A DNA stretch of 64,000 bases. It comes from Paramecium tetraurelia (lineage: Eukaryota). This document shows positions 1-1,312 of the stretch, in pieces. The stretch's first letter is position 1; every line of letters starts with the position of its first letter. Position numbers and translations under genes: made by a program. The notes beneath the pieces were generated by a model. It saw only the letters and a program-made list of their open reading frames with translations. It was not told where the DNA came from and searched no databases. The stretch is taken from positions 1 to 64,000 of the forward strand of contig CT867991.1 of assembly GCA_000165425.1 (NCBI GenBank), read 5' to 3'.

Positions 1-46
1 CAAACCCATACCCAATCCCAACCCTATCCCCAAACCCAAACCCTAA
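1..46 (+). repeat. Degenerate telomeric repeat tract (C3-4A2-3), left end of a macronuclear chromosome
   Basis: caaacccatacccaatcccaaccctatccccaaacccaaaccctaa: ~6-nt CCC periodicity including CCCCAA and CCCAAA, the two Paramecium telomere units, at the window start. Confidence 0.75.
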
Positions 47-1312
47 TCAGAGGAAAGGGTGAGATTAAATCAATTTGTTTCTCACCCAATAATAATACAT
101 TAGCTATTAGCAGTGGACAATTTGTAAATTTATGGAATCTCAAAACTGGAAAGTAATTATGTAAATTAATTGGTCATTCAAGAATCTGTTTCTTCAGTGG
201 GGCTATCTCCTGTATAGTACGACATTAGCATCTGGTAGTTGGGATAACTCTATCCGTTTATGGGATGTTAAGACAGGATAATTAAAAAGCCGAATTATAT
301 GGTCATTCGCGTTATGTAATGTCAGTCAATTTCTCTCCTGATGGTACTACATTAGCATCTGGTAGTTGGGATAACTCTATCCGTTTATGGGATGTTAAGA
401 CAGGATAATAAAAAGCCAAATTAGATGGTCATGAAGATTTAGTTTTTTCAGTCAATTTCTCTCCTGATGGTACTACATTAGCATCTGGTAGCAGAGATAT
501 CTCTATCCGTTTATGGGATGTTAAGACAGGATAATAAAAAGCCAAATTAGATGGTCATTCATCAACAGTTTTATCAGTCAATTTCTCTCCTGATGGTACT
601 ACATTAGCATCTGGTAGTGGAGATAACTCTATCCGTTTATGGGATGTTAAGACAGGATAATAAAAAGCCAAATTAGATGGTCATTCGCATTATGTAAGAT
701 CAGTCAATTTCTCTCCTGATGGTACTACATTAGCATCTGGTAGTTGGGATAAGTCTATCCGTTTATGGGATGTTAAGACAGGATAATAAAAAGCCGAATT
801 ATATGGTCATTCGCGTTATGTAATGTCAGTCAATTTCTCTCCTGATGGTACTACATTAGCATCTGGTATTGCAGATAACTCTATCCGTTTATGGGATGTT
901 AAGACAGGATAATAAAAAGCCAAATTAGAGGGTCATTCAGATTCAGTTTGTTCTGTCAATTTCTCTCCTGATAGTACTACATTAGCATCTGGTAGTAATG
1001 ATAACTCTATCTGTTTATGGGATGTAAAGACATCTAAGGAAATGCTCCAATCTGATGAAGGCTACTAAGATCTGCTTGCCAAGTTTAGAATACCACTTCA
1101 GAATAGTTCCTTATTGCCTAATGGTATTTATTATACATTTATATATAGCCAATCCTTATTGTACAATTTTAAGAATATGTTAGAATCCTTTATTTTAAGC
1201 ATCAGGAACTTAAATCTTATAAGGACAATTCATAAGTCATTAAGGAATAGATTTAAAATCTTTGTATAAATCAAAAGGAAGTTGCTTTTTAGAAGATTTA
1301 ATGCAAAAGTGA
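47..1312 (+). CDS. WD40-repeat protein, 5'-truncated (subtelomeric 126-bp WD40 family)
   Basis: From 301 reads [42 protein letters not shown] with TAA=Gln. Intron 1124-1148 (gtattt..atag). C-terminus ..[32 protein letters not shown] 1310-1312. No start codon; the first ~290 nt contain indels. Confidence 0.85.
228..1030 (+). repeat. Tandem 126-bp coding minisatellite (42-aa WD40 units, ~6.5 copies)
   Basis: GCATCTGGT anchor at 228, 355, 481, 607, 733, 859 and 985 (period 126; the first interval is 127 because of one extra T). Confidence 0.97.

What the first reader, a model, noticed from the sequence alone, without database searches (positions are those of the whole stretch)
301..1030. WD40 repeats nearly identical at DNA level but hypervariable at a few binding-face codons: a HET-E/NLR-like variable receptor signature
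Six 126-bp units are almost invariant, even at synonymous sites. Almost all differences sit right after GH (SRYVM, EDLVF, SSTVL, SHYVR, SRYVM, SDSVC) and after SG[S/I] (WDN, RDI, GDN, WDK, ADN, NDN). The patch gccgaattatatggtcattcgcgttatgtaatg recurs exactly at 289 and 793, implying unit shuffling or gene conversion. The same 42-aa unit length and placement of variable residues typify the fungal HNWD non-self receptors (Podospora HET-E/HET-D), which combine concerted evolution with diversifying selection. Inference: a subtelomeric, recombination-diversified recognition repertoire in a ciliate, possibly reshuffled during macronuclear development.
Basis: partly seen in the sequence, partly recalled or inferred. 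Interest (0 to 1): 0.72.

Follow-up and report, generated by a model that had tools for sequence, protein, structure and literature searches.

The report
Variable-sensor WD40 receptor family in Paramecium
A DNA repeat long filed as a telomere-linked minisatellite of Paramecium is the variable binding domain of a large family of immune-receptor-like proteins, diversified at the same surface positions as fungal non-self receptors; the copy here is a piece cut off by a chromosome end.

Summary
The 126-bp unit is the known Paramecium minisatellite P126, so the repeat itself is not new. Its reading as a receptor repertoire passed most tests. In 261 genomic units the framework is under purifying selection and no variable codon is a stop (about 32 expected). 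Codons 4, 5, 7, 23 and 25 have dN/dS of 2.1-6.2, above neutral simulations with recombination. Codons 5, 7 and 23 are the canonical top-face binding positions of WD40 propellers, and 5/7/23/25 match the selected codons of Podospora HNWD. A local mutation excess is not fully excluded. Full-length members read: helical N-terminus, NACHT, pentapeptide repeats, WD40. There is no HET domain, and the nearest non-ciliate relatives are Mycoavidus/Mortierella NLRs. The window copy is cut by a telomere and most resembles a NACHT-less subclass. Family transcripts appear in RNA contigs. Ligand, immune function and reshuffling during macronuclear development are untested. Ten literature searches found no description of this family as NLR-like.

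The parts
1..43 (+). Telomeric repeats (mixed CCCCAA/CCCAAA, imperfect) joined directly to coding sequence
   Evidence: Sequence; window is the start of contig C8; exact-match contigs in runs X1 and X17 begin at base 44, and an X18 RNA contig continues upstream as WD-repeat coding sequence
44..171 (+). Divergent WD40 blade, typical of the front of the array in NACHT-less members
   Evidence: 15 non-self matches in the genome; 9 of 15 have a readable short start without a P-loop, 6 are cut or broken
172..300 (+). Seventh unit, 129 nt, frameshifted in this assembly; read errors near the contig end or real decay
   Evidence: contigs of all 4 runs diverge from the window at base 184 and read an in-frame unit, as in paralogue C235
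301..1056 (+). Six in-frame 126-bp WD40 units (P126 minisatellite); variable codons 3, 4, 5, 7, 23, 25
   Evidence: AlphaFold pLDDT 92, strands at 6-11, 17-22, 26-31, 37-42 of each unit; Foldseek TM 0.97 to the PkwA WD40 domain 5yzv
283..364 (+). First copy of an exact 82-nt duplication; second copy at 787-868, four units downstream
1057..1123 (+). Family-specific C-terminal tail, first exon part
   Evidence: 12 matches among the fetched loci, best C569, C477, C449, C544, C671
1124..1148 (+). 25-nt GT-AG intron
   Evidence: Sequence; RNA contigs of X17 and X18 leave the window after base 1123 and continue as spliced paralogue exon
1149..1312 (+). Last exon and TGA stop

Best explanation
The array is the C-terminal sensor propeller of a large Paramecium family of NLR-like (STAND) proteins. 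Full-length members read: LRGG-GCGxS start, alpha-solenoid, NACHT ATPase, helical domains, pentapeptide repeats, 6-17 WD40 units. Many members, probably including this gene, lack NACHT and keep only the distal part. Unequal exchange and gene conversion within and between arrays near chromosome ends keep the blade framework uniform and shuffle short patches. Selection favours new residues at the top-face binding positions, so the family samples many binding surfaces on one scaffold (shown statistically). The ligands are most likely foreign proteins from bacteria, symbionts or other invaders. Binding would switch NACHT members to an oligomeric signalling state, with NACHT-less members acting as partner sensors, decoys or a reservoir of repeats (all inferred). 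The window copy is a fragment left by telomere addition inside the gene.
For: Framework dN/dS is 0.12 or less at H2, F11, S12, A19, S20, D24, I27 and W30; codons 4, 5, 7, 23, 25 give 2.84, 3.56, 2.69, 6.21, 2.11 (261 units, 40 contigs). Neutral simulated sites reached at most 1.78 (60 sites, 48 of them with recombination). Pooled without the window's units: dN(variable)/dS(framework) 3.43 and local dN/dS 1.78; 0 of 22 null simulations reached both. TGA at variable codons: 0 seen, about 32 expected. Codons 7, 5, 23 are R1, R1-2, D-1 of PMC3419727. Podospora's selected pairs flank the same conserved positions and loops (PMC1805685). Pfam NACHT in 13 of 13 aligned members, Walker A invariant. One front patch occurs with several different rear patches. 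The same positions top the variability list in 67 units from four other aurelia species. Nearest non-ciliate hits are Mycoavidus, Glomeribacter and Mortierellaceae proteins of the same architecture.
Against: No ligand, phenotype or induction data. Synonymous rate at the variable codons is also raised 1.9-fold. A five-fold mutation hotspot gave 3.54 in 1 of 5 simulations, and 1 of 5 neutral runs gave local dN/dS 1.95. With patch-local trees the estimates fall to 1.65-2.41, and codon 3 is not significant. The site-specific test gives false positives under recombination. No known effector domain was found. This copy is truncated and frameshifted, and its closest relatives have no NACHT. Top-face positions vary in any WD40 protein. 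RNA evidence is from contigs, gives no strand or level, and one of the two runs is RNA by guess.
Confidence: 0.62

Rival explanations
1. A variable binding repertoire, but for internal conflict rather than microbes: the propellers recognise fast-evolving transposase, Helitron or other germline-limited proteins during sexual development.
For: P126 lies inside some Helitrons and at germline chromosome ends (PMC13085455 passages). WD40 ORFs at germline contig ends are transcribed (bioRxiv 2025.11.02.686105 section 7). The selection signal fits this equally well.
Against: The architecture is shared with bacterial-symbiont and fungal NLRs. The lipidation-like N-terminal motif points to membranes rather than nuclei (inference).
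Confidence: 0.18
2. P126 is mainly a selfish or structural minisatellite. The variable codons are mutation or conversion hotspots under relaxed constraint in decaying WD40 genes.
For: Annotated as a minisatellite, the one repeat conserved across aurelia species. Many copies are frameshifted or truncated in this assembly: 81 of 415 candidate units failed the register test. Local dS is raised.
Against: Strong purifying selection on structural residues; 0 stops against about 32 expected; variation tracks the three known binding hotspots, codon by codon, skipping V6 and D24; intact NACHT motifs; spliced RNA.
Confidence: 0.1
3. The proteins are scaffolds for chromosome-end protection or telomere processing, as suggested in bioRxiv 2025.11.02.686105.
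For: That preprint finds WD40 ORFs at one or both ends of 137 of 179 germline contigs. 22 of 27 arrays on large contigs lie within 20 kb of an end.
Against: A housekeeping scaffold should conserve its binding face, yet this is the fastest-evolving part. Gene position does not imply protein location. I did not test whether the preprint's ORFs are this family.
Confidence: 0.07

Closest known systems
P126 minisatellite of Paramecium (Forney and Rodkey 1992, cited as ref. 66 in PMC13085455; the 1992 paper itself was not held)
   Same: 126-nt WD40-like unit linked to macronuclear telomeres. The published consensus (supplement) agrees by eye with my consensus at every position; its ambiguity letters fall in codons 5, 7, 10 and 23.
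   Different: Treated there as a minisatellite. The word NACHT does not occur in the main text, and the passages I saw give no selection analysis or receptor reading.
Podospora anserina HNWD/NWD family (het-e, het-d, het-r; PMC1805685, PMC12222747, passages read)
   Same: 42-aa near-identical WD40 units, exchange within and between loci, selected codons in the d-a loop and b-c turn (7, 9, 25, 27 there = 5, 7, 23, 25 here), NACHT upstream, broken copies alongside intact ones.
   Different: No HET domain; pentapeptide block between NACHT region and WD40; about 1,350-residue helical N-terminus; roughly ten times more loci; many NACHT-less members; no partner like HET-C known. No HNWD protein was among the 43 hits of the NACHT profile.
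NACHT-pentapeptide-WD40 NLRs of Mortierellomycota and Mycoavidus cysteinexigens (PMC11291939; bioRxiv 2022.03.16.484565; passages read)
   Same: Same domain order, a related joint motif before the pentapeptides, alpha-solenoid N-terminus; best non-ciliate hits (E 5e-32 to 5e-18, 29-33% identity). The Glomeribacter protein P0130 has near-identical repeats that vary at the same positions.
   Different: Low identity; no tree was built, so common descent or transfer is not shown; NACHT-less and zinc-finger classes and telomere truncation are seen only here.

Membership tests
P126 minisatellite | 126-nt unit matching the published consensus | tested here: met
   By-eye comparison and consensus sequences
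P126 minisatellite | Association with macronuclear telomeres | tested here: met
   Telomere at 1-43; telomeric repeats join family coding sequence in C672, C146, C214 too
STAND/NLR-like (family level) | NACHT NTPase with intact Walker A and B | tested here: met
   Pfam PF05729 33.6 bits, cut-off 26.7; 13 of 13 members; motifs. NB-ARC also scores in 10 of 13.
STAND/NLR-like (family level) | C-terminal superstructure-forming repeats | tested here: met
   WD40 propeller
STAND/NLR-like (family level) | N-terminal effector domain | tested here: inconclusive
   0 Pfam families in 1,349 residues; model of residues 1-449 has mean pLDDT 50; best match Z 12.8, rmsd 3.3, 155 aligned, generic HEAT/ARM
STAND/NLR-like (family level) | Ligand-triggered oligomerisation and signalling | not testable with these tools
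   Needs biochemistry
STAND/NLR-like (this window's gene) | NACHT in the same gene | tested here: inconclusive
   5' part is cut off; 9 of 15 head homologues have a short start without P-loop, 6 unreadable
Podospora HNWD | HET domain at the N-terminus | tested here: not met
   No Pfam match in the full N-terminal region of L034; one member scanned in full
Podospora HNWD | High internal conservation with exchange of repeats | tested here: met
   only 13 of 212 front-patch haplotypes are shared between contigs, so most exchange is within arrays
Podospora HNWD | Positive selection at four top-face codons | tested here: met
   strength is model-dependent and a mutation hotspot is not fully excluded
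Podospora HNWD | Allele-specific non-self recognition and cell death | not testable with these tools
   No functional data
Mycoavidus/Mortierella NACHT-pentapeptide-WD40 NLRs | Domain order NACHT, pentapeptide, WD40 | tested here: met
Mycoavidus/Mortierella NACHT-pentapeptide-WD40 NLRs | One clade in a NACHT phylogeny | not tested
   Only best-hit evidence

The most novel reading that the evidence does not exclude
Paramecium carries an NLR-type intracellular immune repertoire, related to receptors of endosymbiotic bacteria, whose sensor repeats are stored in hundreds of germline copies at chromosome ends. Because chromosome breakage and telomere addition fall inside these genes, each newly built macronucleus keeps, truncates or recombines a different subset, giving clonal somatic receptor diversity in a single-celled eukaryote. 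The NACHT members are armed by cleavage after a ubiquitin-like LRGG, which exposes a lipidation signal and sends them to membranes.
Probability: 0.15. Interest if true: 0.92.

Novelty: new variant of a known kind. Interest (0 to 1): 0.64.

Why it matters
How ciliates detect intracellular bacteria and other invaders is largely open (my knowledge). This gives a defined candidate repertoire with testable sensor residues in a genetically tractable model. It recasts a 30-year-old 'minisatellite' as a protein domain under diversifying selection. It offers a rival to the telomere-scaffold reading of a 2025 preprint. It also shows the HNWD mode of diversification, at the same codons, far outside fungi.

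Tried and rejected
First site-wise two-rate fit did not converge and was redone. The site-specific dN versus dS test was set aside because neutral simulations with recombination gave many significant sites. Pairwise counting saturates at the variable codons (pN 0.57, pS 0.46) and was not used as proof. Foldseek on the N-terminal model found nothing at E 0.001 or below; no HET, TIR or HeLo entry was among the 50 rows of the wide search, which is inconclusive. The GTDB scan gave one hit, a chimeric contig. A search of 1.84 billion representatives with the N-terminal 442 residues gave 54 unnamed hits and no functional clue. The ESM Atlas could not be used for these proteins, so that view is missing. 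Summed contig depth over the array is no copy number and was not used. Two look-ups of earlier scan findings were empty. Literature searches found no paper on Paramecium NACHT-WD40 receptors or on the LRGG-GCG motif; most subscription papers are outside the library. Passages of PMC9218822, PMC5587647, PMC9004412, PMC4083563, PMC7702705 and PMC5405496 held nothing on this family as receptors. The supplements of PMC12222747 held no repeat sequence; bioRxiv supplements were not seen and may bear on whether the preprint's WD40 ORFs carry NACHT.

Full report
Setting. The window is the first 64 kb of contig C8 of a 72-Mb, 697-contig assembly. It reads in code 6 and begins with mixed CCCCAA/CCCAAA repeats. 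A protein from another contig of this genome is 100% identical to a database entry labelled Paramecium tetraurelia, macronuclear.

Observation. Six units of 126 bp start at 301, 427, 553, 679, 805 and 931. Among units 1-5, 17 of 23 variable columns lie in six codons (3, 4, 5, 7, 23, 25, counting from GH), which make up 18 of 126 columns; 2 of the other 6 are synonymous. The 33-nt patch recurs as stated and belongs to an exact 82-nt duplication four units apart. Unit 6 leaves the repeat in its last 8 codons. Base 869, which gives the lone Ile, is read as G by all contigs laid there in 4 of 4 runs, so it may be an assembly error, though paralogues dominate those contigs.

This copy is a fragment. 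Upstream lie a frameshifted seventh unit (172-300), a divergent blade (44-171) and the telomere. Contigs with no mismatch begin at base 44 in DNA run X1 and in run X17 (RNA by guess). An RNA contig of X18 (other organism label, 5 differences) runs on upstream as WD-repeat coding sequence. So the telomere was added inside a gene, and longer forms exist. The same junction type is seen in C672, C146 and C214. Downstream, a 25-nt intron (1124-1148) and a stop at 1310-1312 close the gene. RNA contigs of both RNA runs show spliced paralogues at this intron, while 1341-2010 has no RNA cover. Contigs give neither strand nor level.

The repeat is known. PMC13085455 (passages and supplement hits read) describes a 126-nt repeat P126, similar to WD40, first found through its link with macronuclear telomeres, conserved across aurelia species and present in some Helitrons. 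Its consensus matches mine by eye. The 1992 source paper was not held. A 2025 preprint (section 7 read) reports transcribed WD40 ORFs at one or both ends of 137 of 179 germline contigs and suggests a telomere role. I did not test whether those ORFs are this family. NACHT occurs in neither main text.

The family. A DNA search gave 298 matches from 40 of 113 candidates scored. The helical joint plus pentapeptide block before the repeats has 111 matches and the NACHT domain 45; these are matches, not loci, and lower bounds. Three architectures appear: (I) long helical N-terminus, NACHT, pentapeptide, WD40; (II) a Cys/His-rich start and coiled coil without P-loop; (III) a short helical start without P-loop. 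Pfam NACHT passes its cut-off and matches 13 of 13 aligned members, with GxxGSGKS invariant. Of 15 homologues of the window's front blade, 9 are class III and 6 are cut or broken, so this gene was probably NACHT-less. Starts were judged from open frames, so hidden upstream exons are possible. Of 27 arrays on contigs over 60 kb, 22 lie within 20 kb of an end against 2.8 expected; 30 arrays on smaller contigs were not counted, the set came from search hits, C8 was given a placeholder length, and repeats can break assemblies. Class I occurs in five aurelia species, P. bursaria and Halteria.

Selection. From 415 candidate units I dropped 81 out of register or terminal, 66 under 80% identity and 7 duplicates, leaving 261 from 40 contigs; none had a stop. 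With a codon model on a whole-unit tree, dN/dS was 2.84, 3.56, 2.69, 6.21 and 2.11 at codons 4, 5, 7, 23 and 25, 1.52 at codon 3, and 0.12 or less at H2, F11, S12, A19, S20, D24, I27 and W30. V6 and D24, between the fast codons, gave 0.28 and 0.07. With patch-local trees the five values fell to 1.83, 2.41, 1.80, 1.84 and 1.65. Neutral simulated sites reached at most 1.78 of 60 (48 with recombination), and three-fold mutation hotspots 2.34 of 18; those simulations were more diverged than the data. In a pooled test at matched divergence, without the window's own units, dN at the six codons was 3.43 times framework dS and local dN/dS was 1.78. One of 22 null runs exceeded the first figure, another the second, none both. 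Local dS was itself 1.9-fold raised. TGA was expected about 32 times at these codons from base frequencies and seen 0 times in 255 units. Selection on the protein is therefore firm, and diversifying selection likely, with a possible share from local mutation or hitch-hiking. The commonest front patches each occur with several rear patches, but only 13 of 212 front patches are shared between contigs.

Structure. The six units fold as propeller blades (pLDDT 92; TM 0.97 to 5yzv). Codons 3-5 fall in the d-a loop, 7 at the start of strand a, 23-25 at the b-c turn. By the rules of PMC3419727 (passages), codons 7, 5 and 23 are R1, R1-2 and D-1, the usual top-face binding residues. In Podospora the selected codons 7, 9, 25, 27 flank conserved 8 and 26 in the same loops (PMC1805685, passages), which is my 5, 7, 23, 25 shifted by two. 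I mapped positions from secondary structure and these rules, not from coordinates. Tyr, Trp or Phe fill 26-34% of codons 5, 7 and 23.

Relatives and effector. A NACHT profile found, outside ciliates, Mycoavidus, Glomeribacter and Mortierellaceae proteins (5 of 43 hits, plus 2 unnamed; 8,000 candidates scored). Glomeribacter P0130 has the same order of domains and near-identical repeats varying at the same positions. PMC11291939 (passages) reports this architecture as NLRs that Mortierellomycota acquired from Mycoavidus. bioRxiv 2022.03.16.484565 (passages) describes an alpha-solenoid N-terminus in such proteins. The Paramecium N-terminus has no Pfam match and models weakly as a HEAT/ARM-like solenoid. 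Thirty of 43 database homologues carry LRGG-G in the first 200 residues, and 23 of these 30 have S, T, A or C at the fifth place from that glycine. Two class III members start MGNCG. That LRGG is the ubiquitin tail and GxxxS a myristoylation signal is recalled knowledge; cleavage and lipidation are inference.

Verdict. It works like an HNWD-type diversified sensor and belongs to a NACHT-pentapeptide-WD40 family. It is not an HNWD member, since HET is missing. Shown: fold, family architecture, constraint, repeat exchange, end location, family RNA. Likely: diversifying selection. Inferred: foreign ligands, immune signalling, roles of NACHT-less members. Untested: somatic reshuffling. Ten searches found no receptor description, although databases already label these proteins 'NACHT domain-containing'. 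Interest 0.64.

Noticed in passing
L034:124-180 (G000:C672) and homologues P0002-P0044: Conserved N-terminal LRGG-GCG[ST]S motif: a ubiquitin-like tail followed by a myristoylation-like signal, in 30 of 43 homologues including P. bursaria. No paper found.
   Followed up: partly
L121:841-6300 (GTDB contig CBDFNB010000026.1): A code-6 Paramecium NACHT gene (73% identity) is fused to bacterial sequence in a Lacunisphaera MAG; most likely a chimeric assembly.
   Followed up: partly
L031:3500-4057 (G000:C676); also L047, L042: Class II members begin with a Cys/His-rich motif (C..H...CIAPH.C...RKLC..C...H) and a coiled coil, like a B-box/coiled-coil module; no Pfam match.
   Followed up: partly
G000:C202:414231-481445: Five divergent NACHT genes clustered within 67 kb inside a contig.
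   Followed up: no
L036 and L037 (G000:C693:195000-229000): Two inverted copies with identical N-termini but different top-face residues in their WD40 units: a natural pair for studying recent diversification.
   Followed up: no
L033 (G000:C6:308124-308880): Four consecutive identical units, a very recent amplification or an assembly expansion.
   Followed up: no
L102, L041, L040, L038: Telomeric repeats inside scaffolds just upstream of family genes, suggesting alternative chromosome breakage sites beside them.
   Followed up: no
window:45348-60560 (-): Open frame of 5,070 codons with cysteine-rich repeats and a C-terminal hydrophobic stretch; looks like a giant surface protein.
   Followed up: no
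window:7273-16199 (-): Large cysteine-rich, multi-pass membrane protein gene typical of ciliates.
   Followed up: no
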